64,000 nt of DNA from the human T2T-CHM13v2.0 reference genome, Homo sapiens (GCF_009914755.1 NC_060933.1), one strand, 5' to 3'; counted from the stretch's first letter, positions 50,448-60,000 are shown. Numbers and translations: made by a program. The notes: generated by a model from the sequence alone, not told the origin.

Positions 50448-50519
50448 TACAAATTATGTTCTTAAAAGAAGCTGCTCAGTGCCATGCCTAACACAAGATG
50501 GAACTCCACGATGAGATAT

Positions 50520-51990
50520 GTGTGAAGACAGGGTGCCATGGTTACAAACAAGGACTCCAGGTGCAGACTGTTTGGTTCAAACCTGGACCAGCGGTATGAA
50601 TTTTTGCAACTCTCTGTATTGCTCTTTGCCTCAGTTCTTTCATATAACAACCAGAAGTAAAAACAAGGTTATTGTGAAAATTAAATGAATTAAAGTAAGT
50701 GGAGTGCCTACAACACCCCCAGGCACACGGTCAGCACTGAGCATGTTTTTCATTACTACTCTTAATGAGGTAAGAATGAGAAAACAGGCGCCAGCCATGA
50801 GCCTGGGGTTTATCTGGCAAAGGCATCAGAGACCCCACTTTTAACATCCTCCATTCATTCATTTGACCCTGATAAGGAAGGAGTCCCATGGGAGAGGAGC
50901 AAGCCTCCACCTTGGGGCCAGACATCTCATGATCAAAGTTGAACTCTACCACTGTTCAGCTGGGTGACTTTGGGCAAGTGACTTTCCCTCTCTGATCCTC
51001 ATGTTCCTTTTTGATAAAAACAGCAAAATGTCAGGCCTATGGGGATTCAAGGAGCCAAAAGAAAAATGTGTGTCTTAGTCTGAATTTCCTGGAAGTAGAT
51101 CCCGAGGCAAAGATTCAAATACAAAAATTTTGTTTGGAGATAACGCTAGGATATTAATTCGACTGCCAGTTCTTCCTTAGGGTGCTAATCCCAGGAAACA
51201 TCAGTGGAGGAGTGGGGAACTGAGACAGGAAAGGAATGCAGCAGTTAAAGGGACCTTCATCAAGAAAGTTTCCACTGTGGCAGCCAGGACTCAGCCCTGC
51301 CAGGTACCTCTGAGAGACAGCACAGAACATGTGCTTCAGAGTCATCATACCCAGAGCAAGGGACCAGGGGTATTTATCCACCAATACCCACCAGTCACTC
51401 CTCAGGGATCCTCCCAAGGGCATGATTCCTCCAGAATGTCCTGCCTGCGCTGCAAGGGTCAGACCTGGGGTTGAGGGCAGGACCCCTGACAGCGCTTCCA
51501 GCAATGAGCAGAACCACAGCCTGATGTGTACAGTTTCAGTCACCCAGTAACTCCAACACACACACACACACACACACACACATTCACACACCACACTCCA
51601 ACACCAACAAAGTATATACGTACATACACATACATGCATACATGACTGTTACCCACTTAGATCCTAGTGACTCCATGGGATAGACGATAAGGTGGGAATC
51701 AGAGGAAAGAGTAAAATTAAGGCGAGTGAAAGTCTTAAGAACAAAATGCAAATTTAGGCTGAAAATGAAGGGGGAGGAGGTGTGGTCTCGACACCAAATG
51801 CCTGCTGGGTGGCACATGCTCTACACACACTGTCACTAATTCTCCAAGCAGCCTCGTGGAGTAAAAGAAATTCCTCTCAATGTACAGATGACAGAAACAT
51901 AGTTCAGAAAAGAAAACTGATTTTACTAATGTCTCAGCAAGTTGGTGGGTGACATGGAGTCCCAGATCTTTCTGTCCACAAAGCCTACAA
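50520..51990. mobile_element. Cluster of MIR fragments, an old MLT1 LTR (~51070-51550) and a (CA)n tract (51556-51600)
   Basis: MIR cores (gctgggtgactttgggcaagtgacttt, gcctcagtt) and MLT-like tcttagtctgaatttcct. Confidence 0.6.
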
Positions 51991-52155
51991 ATTCTCCCTT
52001 GTTAGGCAGGCTGGGTACCAGGCCCTGCTTCTGGGCTCTGCTTCTTTTCCTGCTAGGCTAAAACAGCAGAACTGACAGAGACATCATCCCCCTTCTCCAC
52101 CTGGAGCAGAGCTAATGAGAGGGGCTGGGGAACAGCCATGAGGCCCAGCACCCAC

Positions 52156-53138
52156 CATTCAATGTCTTCAGAATTGCCGTCCCTCAGAACTCTTGCACCA
52201 CGAGGTGGCAGCACTCCCAGTGTCTGGGTGTCTTCTGAGGGGTACCAGGATCCAGTAGAGGCCACTGGCTGTGCTGTCATATCCTAAGTGGCAGCAAGGC
52301 AGGCTTGGGTCTCTTGGCTGCTTCAGCACCAGAGGTTGGACAGTGCCCATGCATTGAGTCCCTCAGGAGAATGGGACGGAAAGGAAGGGCAGAATGGAGT
52401 GATGTAGGGTCCACCCACCATGTCCCTGGATGGAGAGACCCCTGCTCCCACAGTAGTCCACACCAGGACCACGATTGGCACTCATGAAGATGCCAGCCTC
52501 CATGTATATGTCCTTGTCTGACAACTCCTCCTTATTTTCATCCTGGAGACAAGAACCCTGAACACAGTAGCTCTGAGGGCACCTGAGTGTAACCTGAGAC
52601 AGTCCCTGAAGACCTTTCATCCAAGCAGGATCCCTCCCTTGCCATCTCCAGACCTGCCCCACAAACTCCCTCCCTGGTCTCCTGGCTCTTGTTCACTCCT
52701 TCCAGGCAGCCTTCCACAGTCATCTCTAAAACATATATGACTGTCCCTCCTTTATCCAGCACCTTCCATGGCTCCCCAGAGCCCTCCAGGTCAAGTTCAA
52801 GTTCTTTGATCAGACACTAGATCTCAAGCTGCATTCTACCTCCTGAATTAAGATCCCGGAGAAGCCCACCTTGCTCAGCACAAACGCATCACTGAAGTCG
52901 AAAATCTTGAACGTGGCCTTGGCATTGAGGAAGTCATCAACACCCTGGCTAGTGAGGGTGCAGTGCCGCTCCAGGATGATGGTGTCTAAAGTTGTGCACC
53001 AGGTCGCAGGCCCTGCAGAAGCATCTCCCCTCAGGAGTGAGGTAGTACAGGAAGTCTGTGCACAGGCAGATCTGCTGGTGCTGTTACACTATGAGGGCAC
53101 TGAGCTCCAAGATGGTGGCAATATATTCACTGGGATTC
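52156..53138 (-). pseudogene. Unprocessed CYP4F pseudogene fragment, exons 7-9 only (CYP4F29P/30P/35P-type; exact paralog undetermined)
   Basis: Exon 52870-53138 (AG/GT intact): NPSEYIATILELSAL...DFLYYLTPEGRCFCRACDLVHNF/DTIILERHCTLTSQGVDDFLNAKATFKIFDFSDAFVLSK. Exon ~52484-52542: DENKEELSDKDIYMEAGIFM (donor lost). Exon 52156-52283: GYDSTASGLYWIL...EDIEW. Stops and frameshifts present. Confidence 0.92.
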
Positions 53139-53223
53139 CTGCACGGTGAGGTTGGAGAGAGGAAGCATCTCCATAACACATATGAAACCCTGGAAGCACT
53201 TCCCAGCCAGAAATTCAGGACCA

Positions 53224-55437
53224 CGTTATATGCAGATATGGGTGCCCTCTGAGCACACTTGTCTCTCTGTCTCCCACTCTGAGCTGCCTCCTGGCCCCAC
53301 ATGCCCCAGCCTGGCCCAGGGCTTAGCCCAGTGGGTGTTCAGTCCATGGTGTTGACTGCTCCCTGGGCCAGGAGAGCCCTTGGTGGCTCTGTGACTCCTC
53401 CTGTGGAACCCCTACCTCTGCCTTGGGACCTCCCAATTCCCATGGAAGCCCCCACAGCTCTGGATTGCCCCACCTGCCCTGTGATCCTCCAGCCCCATAG
53501 GCCTTACTCGATGCCTTAGCCCTCCCAGAACATGACACGTTTCTCTGAATGTGGCTGATGTCCAGGGCCATCTGTAGATGTTTGCTGGGGACCTCTTGCT
53601 GTTTTCCTTTATGGTCTGTAGGCCAGGGCCAAGAGGAGAAACCAGCCCAATCTCAGAATGGACAAAAGGCTCACTGCCCTAACAGCAACCACCAAACAGT
53701 CAGCAGTGCTTCTGGATGGAAAAGAGGTTTCATTCTGCAGAAAGCTCCTTGTTTGGCTTCTTTCTGAAGCCAGGAAGGGGTACCAAACCCAGCTTACCTG
53801 CGGTGCCTACGTTAGCATCTGTGCCTAGGATGCATGATGGGCTCCCACTGCAGGGTTGACATTCCCTCCAGCTGGAGACCTGGGCTCCTGACACCACCTG
53901 GCGTGTTTGTCCTGCTCTGGATGACGGTGGAAAGGCTGTATCTGGTATTTTCCTAGGTCCTTGGTTTTCACCTTCTAGACATCCAGCAGGAGTGACCATA
54001 CCCAGCCCCACACCTGAAATGGGACTCCCTTGTAGAGCACCTGAGACCTCTACAGACAGAAGAGTGCTCTGGTGAGACAGGCCACAGAGGTCCCCGGGGG
54101 GGGGGGGGGGGATCAGGGGCTGGAGGATTCTGGAGGTTTCCAGCCTTGGGCTCTGTGGTTCCTCAAAGAGTTTAGGTTTACCTAGGACTAGGCCTCCCCT
54201 CCCATGATTCAAAGAGTGGGTGAGTGCTATGCATCACGAACTCTGATCTGGACCTATTTTTTCATTTAGGTCACCAAGAGACAACCCCTAACCCCCAAGC
54301 TAGGGATGGTCCAAGCTCTGGCATGAGATTCTCTTCCAGCAATGTGATGCTTGCAGGGACAGGGAGAAAAGCCGGTGACCAGGCCTGCTGTCCCCCAGGT
54401 AAGGACAGTGTGCTACCCACCCTCTGAGAGGCAGGTGGTGCCAGCTCACTGCACTGGGTGCCTGTACCCCTGGCTCTGCAGACACCGGTCATGGAGGTCC
54501 TCCCCTCTCCACATTACCTTCTTGCTGCTCCCAGATTTCTTCTGGTCATTAAGCACTTTGAGCCATTTTTCTGTGCAGCCGATCTGATATTTTTGCTATC
54601 AGATGAAACATGACAAAGTAAGCCGAGCCACCAGGATTCCTGGAGGGAACCTTGGATGCTGCGTCTTGGGATCCAGAGCCCTGATGGGACTGAACCAGAA
54701 GGAGCCAGGGAAGGACAAACACTGGGGCTCAGGCCCTATGACCCAACGGCCATTGGTGGCCTGTCCTCATGGCCCCAAGACACCCTGTCCTCAGGCCACA
54801 GACACCATGGGCTTTGGTCAGGTCCCAGCCTCCCAGTAGTGCCCTGGCACTGGTGGGTGCTGACCTCCAAACCACAATAGCAGTTCTGGGTTATGGGTTT
54901 GGTAAAACCACCTCAGGGAGAATTCTGGGGTTGGGTTTGGCAGGAACCACGGGGCCTCCCAGGAATGATGTGTCACTCCTACTTGCCACAAAATGTGCAC
55001 AGAGGCTATCCCACTGACCAGCCCATCCTGCTGGACAGGATGGAGGAAATCAGGGAAAAAGCAGGGTGGACATCTGGGGTGCAGGGAGAGGCAGGTGCAT
55101 GCTGGGAGGTCAGACCCTGCGAGGGCTGTGGGGGCATCAGGTGGGGTGGGCTCCAGGTGCACCCTCAATGCACTGGGTGGGTCTCAGGCCAGGCTCCCTG
55201 GACCCTGGTTGGCTGATGTGGTCACTCCCTGGGGGACTGCTGTCAAGCCCTGGCCACCCACCCTGGGCAGCACCATTCCATCCCAAGACCGGATTTTCTG
55301 AGTCCTGAGACAGGACAGTGCTGTCCAGGCCTGACAGACTGGGAGGACCTGCCAAGTCCTCCATCCCTAGACCAGCCTCCCACACAGCAGGGACAGTCTC
55401 TTCCATTTACCTTCAGGGCACTGACTGATCCATGTCA
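53224..55437 (-). pseudogene. Five degenerate TBC1D3/TBC1D26/USP6-like Rab-GAP (TBC) N-terminal exons
   Basis: 55411-55437 micro-exon (TGACATGGA..GTCAGTGCCCTGAAG|gt); 54518-54595 QKYQIGCTEKWLKVLNDQKKSGSSKK (AG/GT); 53942-54049 RSQVLYKGVPFQVWGWVWSLLLDV*KVKTKDLGKYQ (108 nt, donor GT>AT); 53508-53615 TIKENSKRSPANI/QMALDISH/KRVMFWEG*GI (AG/GT); ~53224-53273 ...SAYN. Order, sizes and motifs match the recalled TBC1D3/26 exon series (40/81/108/110/49 nt). Confidence 0.82.
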
Positions 55438-56000
55438 CTCTAAGGCAACCAAGGCAGAGCTGAGGACCTGTGCCAGGCTGGGAGCCAGTCCCCTCCCTAA
55501 ATGGGCCTGAGGAAAGCACCATCCCTGTCCCAATGCGCCCCAAGTTTTAGCCCAGGAGACACAAAGGGAAGGGAGGACGGAGCCTCTCTGCTGGCTGACA
55601 CTTGAAAAGCGGGACCTGGGAGTAGAGGGAGCGCAGGGCTGGCAGGGATGCTCCAGGCCCATGGAGAGCTTGGGCTGCACCAAGGGGCTGCCCCTCCTGG
55701 GCTGGAGGCTGTGCCCTCTGCAGGATCTGAGAAAGTCCAGTCCTGAGATGGGACAGTGCTGCCAAGGGTGGGTGGCTAGGCCTGACAGCAGTCCCCCAGG
55801 GAGTGACCACATCACCCGACCAGGGTCCAGAGAGCCTGGACCGAGACCTGCCCAGTGCACACTGAGAGTGCACCTGGAGCCCACCCCACCTGACGCCCCC
55901 ACAGCCCTCACAGGGTCCGACCTCCCAGCATGCACCTGCCTCTCCCTGCACCCCTACTGCCCACCCTGCCTGTTCCCTGGCTTCCTCCATCCTGTGCAGC
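55030..56000. repeat. Local inverted repeat with ~280-bp arms (55030-55307 / 55721-56000)
   Basis: gggtgcagggagaggcaggtgcatgctgggaggtc.gaccctg.gagggctgtgggggc.tcaggtggggtgggctccaggtgcac occurs on both strands; ORFs 54993(+) and 55435(-) share HAGRSDP.RAVGASGGVGSRCTL. Confidence 0.95.
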
Positions 56001-56204
56001 CCATAGACTGTGACCATCTCTCTAGCCACTCTGGCCCTTCCTTTACCTTTGTTCTTTCAGAATCTCTGAGCAAGATCTCCCAGGTCCATCCAAACACCTG
56101 CTTTGTCCACTTTTGACTGGGCCACTGGACACCACTGGGCCATCCCAGCTGTCCATAGGGCCCCTGATAACATGCATTTCCCCTGACACCTCCCAGCAGT
56201 GCTC

Positions 56205-57072
56205 AGCAGCCCCACTGACCAGGTCCCTGCTGACCAGATCCCGCACATCAGGTCCTCCCTGACCACACTCTCACTGATTAGGCCCCCATCACCAGGCCCC
56301 ACTAACTAGATTCCCGCTGCCAGGCCCACAGTGTCCAGGACCCCACTGACAAGGACCTCACTGACAAGGCCTCACTGACCAGGGCCTTACTGACAAGGCC
56401 TCCCTGACCACATTCCACCAATCATGACCCCATTGCCTGGCCCCACAGATGAAGCCCCACTGACCAGGTCTCCAGGGAACAGGCTGCCAGTGACCAGGTC
56501 CCTACTAACCAGGCCTGCGGTGACCAGATGCCCCGACCAGGAACCTAGTGACTAGGCACCACTGAACAGGCATGTACCGCTCAGACCCCCGTTGACCAGG
56601 TCACCCCATAGACCAGTGCTACAAAAGCCACCACTGATCAAGTCCTCTCTGACCAGGCCCCCACTGATTAGGTTCCACTGACCTGACCAGGCTGCCATGA
56701 CCAGGGTCCCACTGACAAGGGTCTCACTGATGAGGACATGCCCTGCTGACTAGGTGCCATGTGACCAGGCCTCCACTGAATAGCACCCCTTGACCGGGTC
56801 ACCAGTGACCCAGCCCATTCTGACAAGGCTACCACTAAGCCACAGCTGACCAGGTCTCCACTCACCAAGCCCTGCAGCCCAGGTTTGCACTGACCAGACA
56901 CCAAACATTTGTCTGCCACTAGGTCCCCACTCACCAAGACCTGCACTACTCGATCCCTCTAATGAGACCCTCTCTAAGCAGACCCTGGCTGACCATTCCC
57001 CCAGTAAATAGGCCTCACTGACCAAGTCCCAACTGACTAGTTCACTGACCAGGCCCACACTGACCAGGCCCT
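56205..57072. repeat. Degenerate GC-rich minisatellite, core CCCCACTGACCAGG (~17-19 bp period)
   Basis: Repeated cactgaccagg / ctgacaaggc variants throughout. Confidence 0.9.
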
Positions 57073-57079
57073 TCCTAAT

Positions 57080-60000
57080 CATACCAGAAGGCCAAGTGGC
57101 AATGAGATGTTTCATATGGCAGGGGTAGGAGCAAGACAGAGAGAGGAAAGAGGTACCACACCCTGTTAGACAACCAGATCACATGAGGTCTCACTATCAG
57201 GAGATCAGCATCAAGAAGATCCTGCACCCACACCACCACCCACTGTTTCCAGGCAGAAGCCTCCTGCAGAGGCCAAGCCTCTTGAGAAACTTCCACTATG
57301 GCAGTGCAGAAGGAAAATATGGGCTTGGAGCCCCCAAAAAGGAGGCCACCATCCTCCAGATCCCGGATTCATAGGCCCACCAACAGCTCACACCCTCAGT
57401 ATGGAAAAGCTACAGGCACTCAACACCAGCCCAGCCCATGAGAGCAGCCATGGGGCTAAAGCCTGCAAAGCCACAGGTGCACTGCCCTAGTAGAGGTTTT
57501 CCATGAGCCTCTGCCTCTGCAGAAGGCTACTCCCCCTTCCTACTACCCCCTATCCTCCTACCACCCTACTGACAACCTACTCCTCCCCACCCTACCCCTC
57601 CTTTTCCTACCACCCCGAACCCCCTCCCATTCAAGATTAAATCGCCTACCACCAGGCCCCAAAATTAAGGATTACAATTCCATATGAGTTTTATATGGAC
57701 ACACAGTCAATCCATATTATTTGACCCAGATACCCCAGAACCTCATGTCCTTCTCACACAGCAAAACACAGTCATGCATGTTCAAAAGTTTCCAAAATTC
57801 TTAACTCATTCCAAATATAAAAAATTCAAAGTCTCATCTGAGACAAGGCTACAGTCCCTTCGGCCTATCAGTCCCTGAGTTCAAAAGGCATTTCTTTTCT
57901 TTCAAGATACAATGATAGTACCAGCATTAAGTAAGGTTTCTCAATCCAAAGGGAAGAAATTCCCCAGAAAAATGACAAAAATGTCAGTCCAAACCCCAGC
58001 AGGACAATATTCACTCAATCTTTAAGCTCCATAATCATCAAGAGAACTCACTATCACGCAGACAGTATTAAGGAGATAGTGTTTCACCAGTTGTGAAGAA
58101 TCCGTCCCCCCTCATTTTTCACCCCCACCCACAAAATAATCTCTCCTATTCTCCCCACTCCCCCACCTCCAACGCCCACTCTTCTCCATGATTAAATCAT
58201 CTCCCACCAGGCCCCACCTTTAACATTCCCCATTACAATTTCACGAGAGTATTGGTAGTGACACAGGGCCAAATCATATTATTCTCACCCAGGTCCCCCC
58301 ACATCTCATATCGTTGTCACACTGCAAAATACAATGATGCCTTCTCTACAGTCCCCCAAAGTCTTAACTCATTCCAGCATTTACTGAAATGTCCAAAGCC
58401 CAGTCTCATCTGAGACAACGCTGCCATCCCTTCTGCTCGAGCCTCTGAAATACAAAGCAAGTTAACTACTTCCAAGGTACAATGATTGTAGAGACATTGG
58501 GTAAGCATTCCCAGCCAAAAGGAAGAAACTTGTCAGAGGGAAGCACAAAACACAGATGGGACTTGCAGACCCCATGCAAGTCAAAAACCCAGCAGGAAAG
58601 TCATTCCATCCTACAGCTCCAAATCATCTTTCCTGAAAGGATCTACATCCCACATCTAGAGCACAAGAGTGGATGGCGGGGCTCCCAAGGCCTTGGGCAG
58701 CTCAGCTTCTGTGGCTGTGCAGGGTCTTTCCCCACAGCTGCCCTCGTGGGCTGGGCTGGTGGTCAGTGCCTGTGGCTTTCCCACACTGAGGGTGCAAGCA
58801 GTTGGTGGGTCTATGAATCTGGGGTCTGGAAAATGGTTCCTCCCTGTATGGGGGCATCAACCCTGTATGTTCCTTCTGCACTGCCCTAGTAAAGGTTTCC
58901 CATGAGGCTCTGCCTCTTGGAAAAGCTTCTGCCCAGCTGGACACTGAGGTTTTTCCTTACATACTCTTGAGTCTAGACAAAGGCTCCCAAGCCTGTGCAC
59001 CTGCTGGCTTAACACTATGTGGAAGCCACCAAGGCTTGCAGCTTGCACCCTCTGAAGCAGTGACCCAAGCTGTACCTGTGCATCTTTCAGCCATGGCTGG
59101 AGCTGGAGCTGGAGCTGCAGGGATGCAGGCGGCACTGTCCTGAGGATGGACACAGCAGCGCGATCATGGGACTGACCCAGGAAACCATTCTTTGGTCCTA
59201 GAACTCAGGGCCTTTGACAGCAAGCTCTGCTGCAAAGGTCTCTGAAATGCCTTCAAGGCCTTTTTAACATTGTCTTAGCTATTAGCACTGGGCTCCATTT
59301 TATGCACATTTCTGAAGCCTTCTTGAATTTTCCCACTAAAAATCAGCTTTTCTTTTTGACCTCTTGGGCAGGCTGCAAATCAAACTTCAAAGCTCTGCTT
59401 CTCATTTAAATATAAGTTTCAACTTGAGGTCATTTATTTGGTCACACAGAACACCACAGGCTGTTCAATACAGACAAGATACCTCTTGAGTTTTGCTGCC
59501 TAGAAGTTCATTTCACCAGATATACCCTAAATCATCACCCTCAAGTTCAAAGTTTCACAGGTCACCAGGTCAGGAGCACCATCCAGCCAAGTTCTTTGCT
59601 AAGGCAAAAGAAAAGTTACCTTGGCTTCTGCTCTCAGTAAGTTGTTCATTTTCATCTGAGACCTTCTAAGCCTGGCCTTCACTATCCATCCTTCAGTCAC
59701 CCTTTTAATTATAACTATTTAACACGTCTCTACAATAGTCAAAACTTTCATTCATCTTTCTGTCTTCTTCCAAGCCCTCCAAACTGTGCAGCCTCTGGTC
59801 GTTACCCAGCTTCTGAACCTGCTTCTGAACTTGCTTCTACACTTTCAGCTATCGTTGTGACAGCCTGGCAGTGTGGTAAAAGAAAAAAAGTCCATTTTCA
59901 GGGGGAAAATTCAAGAAGGCTTCAGATATTTGCATATAAAAGAAGCCAAATGTTAATAGTAAAAAATCAGGAAAAAAACCTTGAGGGCATTTCATAGCTC

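What the first reader, a model, noticed from the sequence alone, without database searches (positions are those of the whole stretch)
52156..56100. Exon-shuffled TBC(Rab-GAP)-CYP4F chimera with a phase-compatible junction
Seen: on the minus strand, five TBC1D3/TBC1D26-like exons run in native order and are followed ~85 bp later by CYP4F exons 7-9 in the same orientation; the genomic switch lies in ~53140-53223. The last TBC exon has poor splice sites (gggag / gtcctg). The preceding exon keeps a strong donor (GA|gtaagg at 53507) and ends in phase 2 of its ancestral frame, and CYP4F exon 7 keeps its acceptor (cag at 53141-53139) and starts in phase 2. Splicing the two gives GGC ATC GA|G AAT CCC AGT GAA TAT (GIENPSEY), in frame. 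Known: USP6 arose by fusing TBC1D3 5' exons to USP32. Inference: this is an independent, now decayed, fusion of the same 5' module to a P450 fragment, hidden inside what is usually labelled simply a CYP4F pseudogene. Current stops and 1-bp deletions preclude the fusion protein in this copy.
Basis: partly seen in the sequence, partly recalled or inferred. Interest (0 to 1): 0.8.

Follow-up and report, generated by a model that had tools for sequence, protein, structure and literature searches.

The report
Dead TBC–CYP4F pseudogene junction, copied 17 times
A broken internal piece of a TBC1D3/TBC1D26-type gene lies fused, intron to intron, to a broken three-exon piece of a CYP4F gene; it is a relic of duplication near centromeres copied to 17 places in this genome, not a former fusion gene.

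Summary

- **TBC part:** window 56122-53291 (minus strand) aligns, introns included, with TBC1D3/TBC1D26-family loci. It holds four exons, coding exons 3-6 of the family. The ATG exon and the second coding exon are absent.
- **CYP4F part:** No haem-binding exons follow.
- **Junction:** the switch lies at 53309-53291, in a 16-19 nt imperfect microhomology.
- **Phases:** the phase-2/phase-2 match is correct, but it has a one-in-three chance.
- **Copies:** the same junction occurs in 17 copies (chr2, 8, 9, 13, 18, 20, 21).
- **Shared damage:** two 1-bp deletions and a TAA in TBC exon 6, and a 2-bp deletion in CYP4F exon 7, are in 17 of 17 copies. A TAA in exon 7 is in 16 of 16 alignable copies.
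- **No constraint:** exons have diverged as fast as introns.

Side findings: the interval RefSeq labels CYP4F45P is TBC-derived DNA, and published CYP4F26P qPCR primers sit in the TBC-derived part of the chr9:33.62M copy. Interest is low.

The parts
53291..56122 (-). TBC1D3/TBC1D26-family gene fragment, from an intron upstream of coding exon 3 to about 217 nt into the intron after coding exon 6
   Evidence: Local blastn against nine TBC-family loci gives 67-76% identity, introns included. There is no TBC homology upstream of 56122 up to window end 64000. Copies on chr8, chr2p and chr2q have the same two boundaries.
55405..55437 (-). TBC coding exon 3 homologue. It carries a 7-bp deletion in the 5 non-chr8 copies aligned (chr8 keeps the 7 nt), and the ancestral donor GT is changed to GG in this copy.
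   Evidence: Alignment with five TBC-family loci and five other duplicon copies. The exon was located in the TBC1D3 copy. It is not detectable at protein level.
55030..56000 (.). Inverted duplication inside the TBC intron: arms 55030-55266 and 55762-56000
   Evidence: the repeat finder reports arms of 141 nt at 90% and 98 nt at 84% complementarity. TBC-family loci match both arms with a single region.
54518..54595 (-). TBC coding exon 4 homologue, open in this copy
   Evidence: Aligned with three TBC-family loci. A TAG lies inside this exon in 12 of 17 copies. It is the same codon in the 4 of those that I aligned. tblastn against the TBC1D3-copy exon gives only E 0.82.
53942..54049 (-). TBC coding exon 5 homologue (start of the TBC domain). 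It has an in-frame TAG, and the donor GT is changed to AT in this copy.
   Evidence: tblastn gives E 1.9e-8 against the chr17:15.64M exon and 9e-7 against the TBC1D3-copy exon. The genome-wide peptide search hits chr17:5.03M and chr17:15.64M at E 1.3e-3, chr10:11.51M at 0.012 and chr17:37-39M copies at 0.0245. The donor GT is kept in 9 of 17 copies.
53508..53615 (-). TBC coding exon 6 homologue: 108 nt against 110 nt in the TBC1D3 copy, with two 1-bp deletions and TAA in place of the parental TAC
   Evidence: All three lesions are present in 17 of 17 copies. The homologous TBC1D3-copy exon matches Pfam RabGAP-TBC only weakly, E 0.14.
53139..53507 (-). Hybrid intron: TBC donor and about 217 nt of TBC intron, then about 152 nt of CYP4F intron 6 and its acceptor
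   Evidence: The donor GT and the acceptor AG are kept in 17 of 17 copies.
53291..53309 (.). Breakpoint: a stretch of 16-19 nt where both parents align imperfectly, identical in position in all 17 copies
   Evidence: Five TBC loci end at 53291 and both CYP4F loci start at 53309.
53226..53275 (-). It is not TBC; it is CYP4F intron 6 DNA.
   Evidence: It lies inside the 53309-53139 stretch that aligns with two chr19 CYP4F loci, 83% over 53309-53231.
52870..53138 (-).
   Evidence: tblastn E 5e-22. The TAA is in 16 of 16 alignable copies and the 2-bp deletion in 17 of 17. The intact chr19 exon matches Pfam p450 at E 7.5e-12, profile positions 170-248.
52476..52542 (-).
   Evidence: tblastn E 1.6e-4. 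Alignment.
52156..52283 (-).
   Evidence: tblastn E 3.5e-5. Pfam p450 gives E 0.32 on ORF 52168-52362. Alignment.
50464..53309 (-). Whole chr19 CYP4F-cluster-derived block. It is continuous from 53309 to about 51977/51837, then non-coding DNA at 51604-50464 matches chr19:15.715M.
   Evidence: No Pfam p450 match in any minus-strand frame of 51978-48500.

Best explanation
This is a non-coding relic. It is one junction inside a pericentromeric mosaic of gene fragments.

The join lies inside introns, at a short stretch of imperfect microhomology. The joined block was then copied by segmental duplication to 17 places in this genome.

By the time of the last common ancestor of those copies, both halves already carried stops and frameshifts. 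The exons have since drifted at the intron rate. The block makes no protein.

The same orientation and the matching intron phase are coincidences, with a joint chance of about 1 in 6.

Shown: anatomy, breakpoint, single origin of the junction, shared lesions, lack of constraint. Inferred: the joining mechanism (microhomology-mediated) and that no open fusion frame existed before the common ancestor.
For: 1. Boundaries. TBC homology runs 56122-53291 and CYP4F homology starts at 53309. The chr8, chr2p and chr2q copies have the same TBC boundaries.
2. Single origin. All 17 copies have the same junction. The trees of the TBC half and the CYP4F half give the same groups of copies, with chr8 the deepest branch.
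3. No 5' end. The ATG exon and the second coding exon of the family give no match in the 64-kb window above noise (best E 0.3-0.8, none near 56100). They are found upstream of the homology start in the chr17:5.02M locus (both exons) and the chr17:15.64M locus (second exon).
4. No 3' end. No P450 exon lies downstream of 52156.
5. Shared lesions. The TBC exon at 53615-53508 has two 1-bp deletions and a TAA in 17 of 17 copies. The CYP4F exon at 53138-52870 has a TAA in 16 of 16 alignable copies and a 2-bp deletion in 17 of 17.
6. No open copy. Reading the three exons around the junction straight through gives 3-10 stops in each of the 17 copies.
7. No constraint. Among 7 lineages, mean pairwise difference is 0.122 in 683 exon columns against 0.114 in 1268 intron columns. 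Minimal changes are 237/683 against 423/1268. There is no third-position excess (21/48, 17/47, 17/47 and 20/36, 15/36, 11/36).
Against: - The lesions shared by all copies arose on the stem leading to the 17 copies (0.087 substitutions per site on the TBC side, 0.125 on the CYP4F side). Their order relative to the joining event cannot be read from one genome, so a short-lived open frame is not strictly excluded.
- The donor GT at 53507 and the acceptor AG at 53139 survive in 17 of 17 copies.
- Some paralogues are reported as transcribed. PMC13403586 (passages read) gives CYP4F29P the biotype 'transcribed unprocessed pseudogene'.
- The CYP4F26P qRT-PCR primers printed in PMC8088053 match the chr9:33.62M copy with 0 mismatches, inside its TBC-derived part.
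- The block may therefore have a life as non-coding RNA.
Confidence: 0.85

Rival explanations
1. One reading: a once-functional, exon-shuffled TBC-CYP4F fusion gene, comparable to USP6, that has since decayed.
For: - Both fragments have the same orientation, and both parental introns are phase 2, so the ancestral frames join in frame.
- The join is intron to intron and keeps a good donor and acceptor.
Against: - There is no ATG exon and no second coding exon.
- The fragment lacks the TBC exon that carries Pfam RabGAP-TBC positions 82-122. That exon lies beyond the breakpoint in the parents.
- The P450 piece covers only about profile positions 170-330 of 462 and has no later exons.
- Lesions on both sides are shared by all alignable copies.
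- Evolution has been neutral since the common ancestor.
- Phase match plus orientation has a chance of about 1/6.
Confidence: 0.04
2. The block is non-coding but used. In transcribed paralogues the TBC-derived exon at the position of 53615-53508 is spliced to the CYP4F-derived exon through the hybrid intron. The RNAs measured as 'CYP4F pseudogene' transcripts would then be TBC-CYP4F chimeras. This is compatible with the best explanation as to origin.
For: - The CYP4F26P qRT-PCR primers in PMC8088053 (passages read) both match the chr9:33.62M copy exactly. They bracket 141 bp that correspond to window 53697-53563, which is TBC intron plus TBC exon 6.
- PMC13403586 (passages read) calls CYP4F29P a transcribed unprocessed pseudogene.
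- Several papers list CYP4F26P, CYP4F29P or CYP4F35P in expression data (listing only).
- The donor GT and acceptor AG are kept in 17 of 17 copies.
Against: - The amplicon is unspliced genomic sequence, so it shows neither splicing nor freedom from DNA carry-over.
- RefSeq gives no transcript for this window's copy (hub table).
- I saw no exon table or junction read for any paralogue.
- The upstream exon's donor is lost in 8 of 17 copies, including the window.
Confidence: 0.35
3. The TBC resemblance is chance, or the junction arose several times independently.
For: Pfam finds no TBC domain in window ORFs. Three of four TBC exons are not significant at protein level.
Against: - Collinear DNA alignments of 0.5-1.6 kb run through exons and introns to nine TBC-family loci, with E as low as 1e-141.
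- Three of those loci contain exons over the Pfam RabGAP-TBC cut-off.
- The breakpoint is identical in all 17 copies.
Confidence: 0.01

Closest known systems
USP6 (Tre2), the TBC1D3-USP32 chimeric gene. The origin is recalled; the paper by Paulding et al. 2003 is only cited in PMC6920530 and is not held.
   Same: TBC1D3-family sequence placed by segmental duplication upstream of, and in the same orientation as, part of an unrelated gene.
   Different: - The chr17:5.02M locus that I take to be USP6 keeps the ATG exon and the second coding exon. It also keeps a TBC-domain exon over the Pfam cut-off.
- The window block has only coding exons 3-6, all damaged.
- It belongs to a different, older branch of the family, about 68% DNA identity to the TBC1D3 and USP6 loci.
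- It is not open in any copy.
The dispersed CYP4F pseudogene family (CYP4F25P and relatives)
   Same: - This block is a member; RefSeq's CYP4F25P label covers exactly the first CYP4F exon.
- PMC4964396 (passage read) says 21 CYP4F pseudogenes lie on chromosomes 1, 2, 8, 9, 13, 18, 19 and 21.
- I find junction-bearing copies on chr2, 8, 9, 13, 18, 20 and 21.
   Different: Neither the passages I read nor the RefSeq labels mention a TBC-derived part. The chr20 copy is not in that list.
Pericentromeric mosaic duplicons, in which fragments of unrelated genes are juxtaposed and then copied among pericentromeres (recalled from the segmental-duplication literature; no paper read here)
   Same: - There are many copies, mostly near centromeres on several chromosomes.
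- The same window holds fragments of GXYLT1, CNN2 and ZNF114 (hub table).
- The junction is shared by all copies.
   Different: Nothing essential. This is a typical case.
Unfused TBC1D3/TBC1D26-family pseudogenes at chr6:29.39M, chr7:57.65M, chr16:38.97M and chrX:51.75M/51.82M
   Same: - They share the exon-intron backbone.
- They form one of the three groups in the TBC tree, next to the duplicon clade.
- They carry stops or deletions.
   Different: Three of them (chr16, chr7, chrX) go on into 3' TBC sequence instead of CYP4F, and the chr6 locus continues along TBC sequence past the breakpoint position. They lack the first 1-bp deletion and the TAA of the duplicon; a 1-bp gap at the site of the second deletion also appears in the chr16 copy.

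Membership tests
TBC (Rab-GAP) domain gene of the USP6NL/TBC1D3/TBC1D26 family | Sequence homology to family members | tested here: met
   Collinear DNA alignment to nine family loci at 67-76%. One exon is significant at protein level, E 1.9e-8.
TBC (Rab-GAP) domain gene of the USP6NL/TBC1D3/TBC1D26 family | A recognisable, complete RabGAP-TBC domain (Pfam PF00566) | tested here: not met
   No Pfam hit in window ORFs. The exon matching profile positions 82-122, present in the parents, lies beyond the breakpoint and is absent here.
TBC (Rab-GAP) domain gene of the USP6NL/TBC1D3/TBC1D26 family | Intact reading frame with a start codon | tested here: not met
   The ATG exon is absent. Stops and frameshifts are present in the exons.
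Cytochrome P450, CYP4F subfamily | Sequence homology to CYP4F genes | tested here: met
   73-76% DNA identity to two chr19 cluster loci. tblastn E 5e-22. The only PDB match is CYP4B1.
Cytochrome P450, CYP4F subfamily | C-terminal exons with the haem-binding cysteine region | tested here: not met
   Exon homology ends at 52156. No p450 match in 51978-48500 in three frames. Only non-coding chr19 DNA follows.
Cytochrome P450, CYP4F subfamily | Intact reading frame | tested here: not met
   A TAA and a 2-bp deletion in the first exon of the fragment.
Chimeric fusion gene of the USP6 type | Promoter and 5' coding exons of the upstream parent retained | tested here: not met
   The TBC fragment starts in an intron at 56122. 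The first two coding exons are absent.
Chimeric fusion gene of the USP6 type | Open frame across the junction, now or in the reconstructed ancestor | tested here: not met
   0 of 17 copies read open. Lesions are shared by all alignable copies.
Chimeric fusion gene of the USP6 type | Transcript spliced across the junction | not testable with these tools
   No RNA data or transcript tables for the paralogues are on hand. The only indirect hint is the unspliced CYP4F26P amplicon.
Pericentromeric mosaic duplicon | Fragments of unrelated ancestral loci joined, with the junction shared by dispersed copies | tested here: met
   17 copies on 7 chromosomes have an identical breakpoint. The parents lie on chr17-type TBC loci and the chr19 CYP4F cluster.

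The most novel reading that the evidence does not exclude
Between the joining event and the last common ancestor of the 17 human copies, the block was briefly part of a larger transcription unit. In it the TBC exons 3-6 and the three CYP4F exons were read in one frame, the phase-2/phase-2 junction allowing it, with start and end supplied by neighbouring duplicon modules. All shared lesions would then be later decay.
Probability: 0.03. Interest if true: 0.5.

Novelty: new member of a known kind. Interest (0 to 1): 0.18.

Why it matters
Mostly as a correction.

- **Annotation.** The dispersed "CYP4F pseudogenes" of human pericentromeres are two-part relics. Their upstream part comes from the TBC1D3/TBC1D26 family. 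RefSeq's CYP4F45P label at this locus sits on TBC-derived DNA.
- **Expression studies.** At least one published assay for CYP4F26P RNA amplifies the TBC-derived part, so reports on these pseudogenes should be read with that in mind.
- **TBC1D3 evolution.** For those studying the TBC1D3 core duplicon, fragments of an old branch of that family were already being moved around and copied well before the present chr17 genes diversified.
- **New genes.** It says nothing new about how new genes arise.

Tried and rejected
- **Pfam on eleven window ORFs** and on read-through translations gave no TBC hit and only a weak p450 hit (E 0.32). The fragments are too short and broken.
- **Ordering the lesions against the fusion.** I compared unfused relatives. 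A 1-bp gap at the site of the duplicon's second deletion also appears in the chr16 pseudogene. That copy nests among relatives without the gap, so I treat it as coincidence or alignment ambiguity, not as evidence.
- **Rooting the TBC tree with the chr10 locus (USP6NL by recollection).** There was no DNA-level hit, so the tree is unrooted. "Sister group" is conditional on the root.
- **CYP4F similarity in the interval labelled CYP4F45P.** tblastx against 24 kb of chr19 CYP4F DNA gave E 0.57 or worse inside the interval. A genome-wide DNA search gave 41 matches, none in the chr19:15.5-16M cluster.
- **Further chr19 and TBC sequence.** As a result the third chr19 locus (79% identity) and the pericentromeric TBC exons seen were not examined.
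- **The USP6 origin paper** (PMC151371) is not held.
- **Literature searches for the junction.** "cyp4f + pseudogene + pericentromeric" found 0 papers. "tbc1d3 + cyp4f" found 23 papers; the 15 listed are gene-list papers by title. CYP4F pseudogene names found 50 papers; the 25 listed are expression studies by title. Searches added nothing on structure.
- **Limits of the library.** Subscription papers, such as the P450 nomenclature papers and much of the segmental-duplication literature, are not in it. I therefore cannot say the junction is unpublished.
Full report
**What is in the sequence**

On the minus strand, window 56122-53291 aligns collinearly with nine loci of the TBC1D3/TBC1D26 gene family. 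The alignment runs through exons and introns alike.
- chr17:15.64M: 71-76% identity
- chr17:16.87M: 74-78%
- a chr17:37.1M copy: 67.6%
- chr17:5.02M: 67.6%
- chr1:245.94M: 67.9%
- pseudogene-like loci on chr7, chr16, chr6 and chrX

Three of these loci contain an exon over the Pfam RabGAP-TBC cut-off: chr17:37,117,768-37,117,893, chr17:5,029,166-5,029,288 and chr17:15,647,424-15,647,540. The family assignment therefore does not rest on my recollection of gene positions. By position I take them to be a TBC1D3 copy, USP6 and TBC1D26; no tool names them.

From 53309 the window aligns with two loci of the chr19:15.7M CYP4F cluster at 73-76%. The alignment is continuous to about 51977/51837. One of the two loci is intact over these exons, and its first exon matches Pfam p450 at E 7.5e-12.

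**Exons**

I read the coding exons of the TBC1D3-type copy from the locus itself and carried them over by alignment. The window holds homologues of four exons:
- coding exon 3: 55437-55405
- coding exon 4: 54595-54518
- coding exon 5: 54049-53942
- coding exon 6: 53615-53508

The CYP4F exons are 53138-52870, 52542-52476 and 52283-52156. They are three consecutive exons covering roughly Pfam p450 positions 170-330.

At protein level the CYP4F exons are clear, at E 5e-22, 1.6e-4 and 3.5e-5. Of the TBC exons only exon 5 is clear (E 1.9e-8 and 9e-7). Exon 4 reaches E 0.82 at the right place, and exons 3 and 6 are not found. The TBC case rests on DNA collinearity.

**The breakpoint**

Five TBC loci stop aligning at exactly 53291. 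Both CYP4F loci start at 53309. Between these points lies a stretch of 16-19 nt that both parents match imperfectly. That is what a microhomology-mediated join would leave; this step is inference.

The join therefore lies about 217 nt into the TBC intron after coding exon 6 and about 170 nt before the end of CYP4F intron 6.

The real next TBC exon lies about 1.8 kb further on in the TBC1D3 copy.

**Phases**

- The TBC1D3-type exon 6 is 110 nt, starts in phase 0 and ends two bases into a codon.
- The chr19 exon begins with the third base of a codon.

Two arbitrary introns match in phase one time in three, and orientation matches one time in two.

In the window itself exon 6 has lost two bases and is 108 nt long. 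A straight reading enters the CYP4F exon in another frame and stops at its fourth codon.

**It is not a 5' module**

- TBC homology begins at 56122 and nothing upstream to window end 64000 matches TBC loci.
- The chr8, chr2p and chr2q copies begin and end at the same parental positions.
- The ATG exon and the second coding exon, read from the TBC1D3 copy, give only noise in the whole window (best E 0.3-0.8, none near 56100). In the chr17:5.02M locus both are found, and in the chr17:15.64M locus the second, about 1.1-1.5 kb upstream of the point where window homology starts.

On the other side, no P450 exon follows 52156.
- Three frames of 51978-48500 give no p450 match.
- What follows at 51604-50464 is non-coding DNA that matches chr19:15.715M.

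**Copies**

The own-genome searches find 17 copies carrying both halves:
- five on chr9 at 40.3M, 42.96M (the window), 44.5M, 77.8M and 79.7M
- chr9:33.62M and chr9:38.57M
- chr2:95.27M
- four at chr2:130.5-131.7M
- chr8:43.81M, chr13:17.96M, chr18:14.50M, chr20:30.08M and chr21:12.19M

Identity to the window runs from 83.7% to 99.7%. All 17 have the same breakpoint.

Trees of the two halves give the same groups of copies, with chr8 the deepest branch. The block has travelled as one unit since a single joining event.

In the TBC tree the 17 copies form one clade on a stem of 0.087 substitutions per site. There are two other groups: the chr17 loci with chr1, and the chr6/7/16/X pseudogenes. The tree is unrooted because the chr10 locus gave no DNA match. 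The fragment is thus not a piece of TBC1D3 itself but of a separate old branch of the family.

**Was it ever coding?**

Lesions shared across copies:
- All 17 copies share two 1-bp deletions and a TAA (parental TAC) in TBC exon 6.
- The CYP4F exon has a TAA in 16 of 16 alignable copies. The chr20 copy is deleted at that point.
- The same exon has a 2-bp deletion in 17 of 17 copies.
- TBC exon 4 holds a TAG in 12 of 17 copies. It is the same codon in the 4 that I aligned. The five pericentromeric chr9 copies, which nest deep in the tree, have CAG there.
- The TAG in exon 5 is younger: it is absent from chr8 and chr2:95.27M.

Joining the three exons around the junction gives 3-10 stops in every one of the 17 copies.

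Since the common ancestor, exon columns have changed as fast as intron columns. Mean pairwise difference is 0.122 against 0.114, and minimal changes are 237/683 against 423/1268. There is no excess at third codon positions.

What cannot be settled from one genome is whether the shared lesions came before or after the join. They lie on the stem of the clade. No unfused copy of the same branch exists in this genome.

**Transcription**

- RefSeq gives no transcript at this locus (hub table).
- PMC13403586 (passages read) gives CYP4F29P the biotype "transcribed unprocessed pseudogene".
- PMC8088053 (passages read) prints qRT-PCR primers for CYP4F26P. Both match the chr9:33.62M copy without mismatch, 141 bp apart. 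This corresponds to window 53697-53563, which is TBC intron plus TBC exon 6.

So RNA reported under a CYP4F name is measured on TBC-derived sequence. The amplicon is unspliced, so it does not show use of the hybrid intron. The donor GT and acceptor AG of that intron are kept in 17 of 17 copies, which is weak evidence at this level of divergence.

**Annotation**

RefSeq's CYP4F25P (52870-53152) is exactly the first CYP4F exon.

RefSeq's CYP4F45P (53677-53999) lies in TBC-derived DNA.
- tblastx against 24 kb of chr19 CYP4F DNA finds nothing better than E 0.57 inside it.
- A genome-wide search with 53660-54010 gives 41 matches. These are the 17 copies, then TBC-family loci on chr17, chr6, chrX, chr16 and chr1, and two adjacent matches at one small fragment at chr19:19.88M. 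None lies in the CYP4F cluster.

**Comparison and verdict**

The block resembles USP6 only in that TBC1D3-family DNA lies upstream of another gene's exons. It fails every defining test of a fusion gene that could be run. It fits the familiar picture of pericentromeric mosaics of gene fragments; that picture is recalled, as I read no paper on it here.

PMC4964396 (passage read) lists 21 dispersed CYP4F pseudogenes on chromosomes 1, 2, 8, 9, 13, 18, 19 and 21. This agrees with the copy map except for chr20. I found no paper that mentions the TBC part, but much of the relevant literature is not in the library.

On age: the deepest copies differ by 14-18%. At the primate neutral rate that I recall, about 1-2 x 10^-9 per site per year, that is tens of millions of years. 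This is a rough inference.

Verdict: a real but ordinary relic, and the reading as a fusion gene is not supported. The useful by-products are the corrected anatomy, the mislabelled interval and the primer observation.

Noticed in passing
window 53677-53999: The RefSeq label CYP4F45P sits on DNA that matches only TBC1D3/TBC1D26-family loci genome-wide (41 matches, none in the chr19 CYP4F cluster). It shows no CYP4F similarity by tblastx.
   Followed up: yes
L042 (chr9:33.62M copy) 440-580; corresponds to window 53697-53563: The CYP4F26P qRT-PCR primers printed in PMC8088053 match this copy with 0 mismatches. They amplify 141 bp of TBC-derived intron plus exon, with no CYP4F-derived sequence.
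   Followed up: partly
window 55030-55266 and 55762-56000: An inverted duplication (141 nt at 90% and 98 nt at 84%) lies inside the TBC-derived intron. It was seen in every duplicon copy listed, whereas TBC-family genes match both arms with one region.
   Followed up: partly
window 56100-54849: The first 1.0-1.6 kb of the TBC fragment, with the module upstream of it (56130-58100), also occurs without the CYP4F part at 20 or more further places. These include acrocentric short arms, chr1:127.9M, chr4:49.2-49.4M, chr3:200.78M, chr9:94.2M, chr9:100.1-100.3M and chr9:109.3M, at 86-91% identity (TBC part; the upstream module 79-85%).
   Followed up: no
G000 chr14:13.53M, chr18:15.15M, chr22:16.48M, chr9:47.83M, chr21:5.64M, chr13:9.38M, chr15:4.74M and others: Isolated exons over the Pfam RabGAP-TBC cut-off (profile positions about 82-123, open frames of 82-98 aa) lie in pericentromeric and acrocentric DNA. 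This is the TBC exon type that is missing from the window's block. Their relation to it was not examined.
   Followed up: no
window 51604-50464: Non-coding DNA downstream of the CYP4F exons matches chr19:15.715M (72-74%). That is about 12 kb beyond where the exon-bearing homology ends on chr19. The chr19-derived block is therefore longer than the exons and has an internal gap or deletion.
   Followed up: partly
window 54108-54094: A run of about 15 C lies just upstream of TBC exon 5. Alignments to the chr13, chr18 and chr21 copies break around it (query 1863-1943).
   Followed up: no
L030 (chr1:245.94M), L029 (chrX:51.75M, with a twin at 51.82M), chr19:19.88M: Further TBC1D3/TBC1D26-family loci. 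The chr1 locus has the ATG exon with an internal stop. chrX has an inverted pair of copies. chr19:19.88M holds a fragment of about 150 bp.
   Followed up: no
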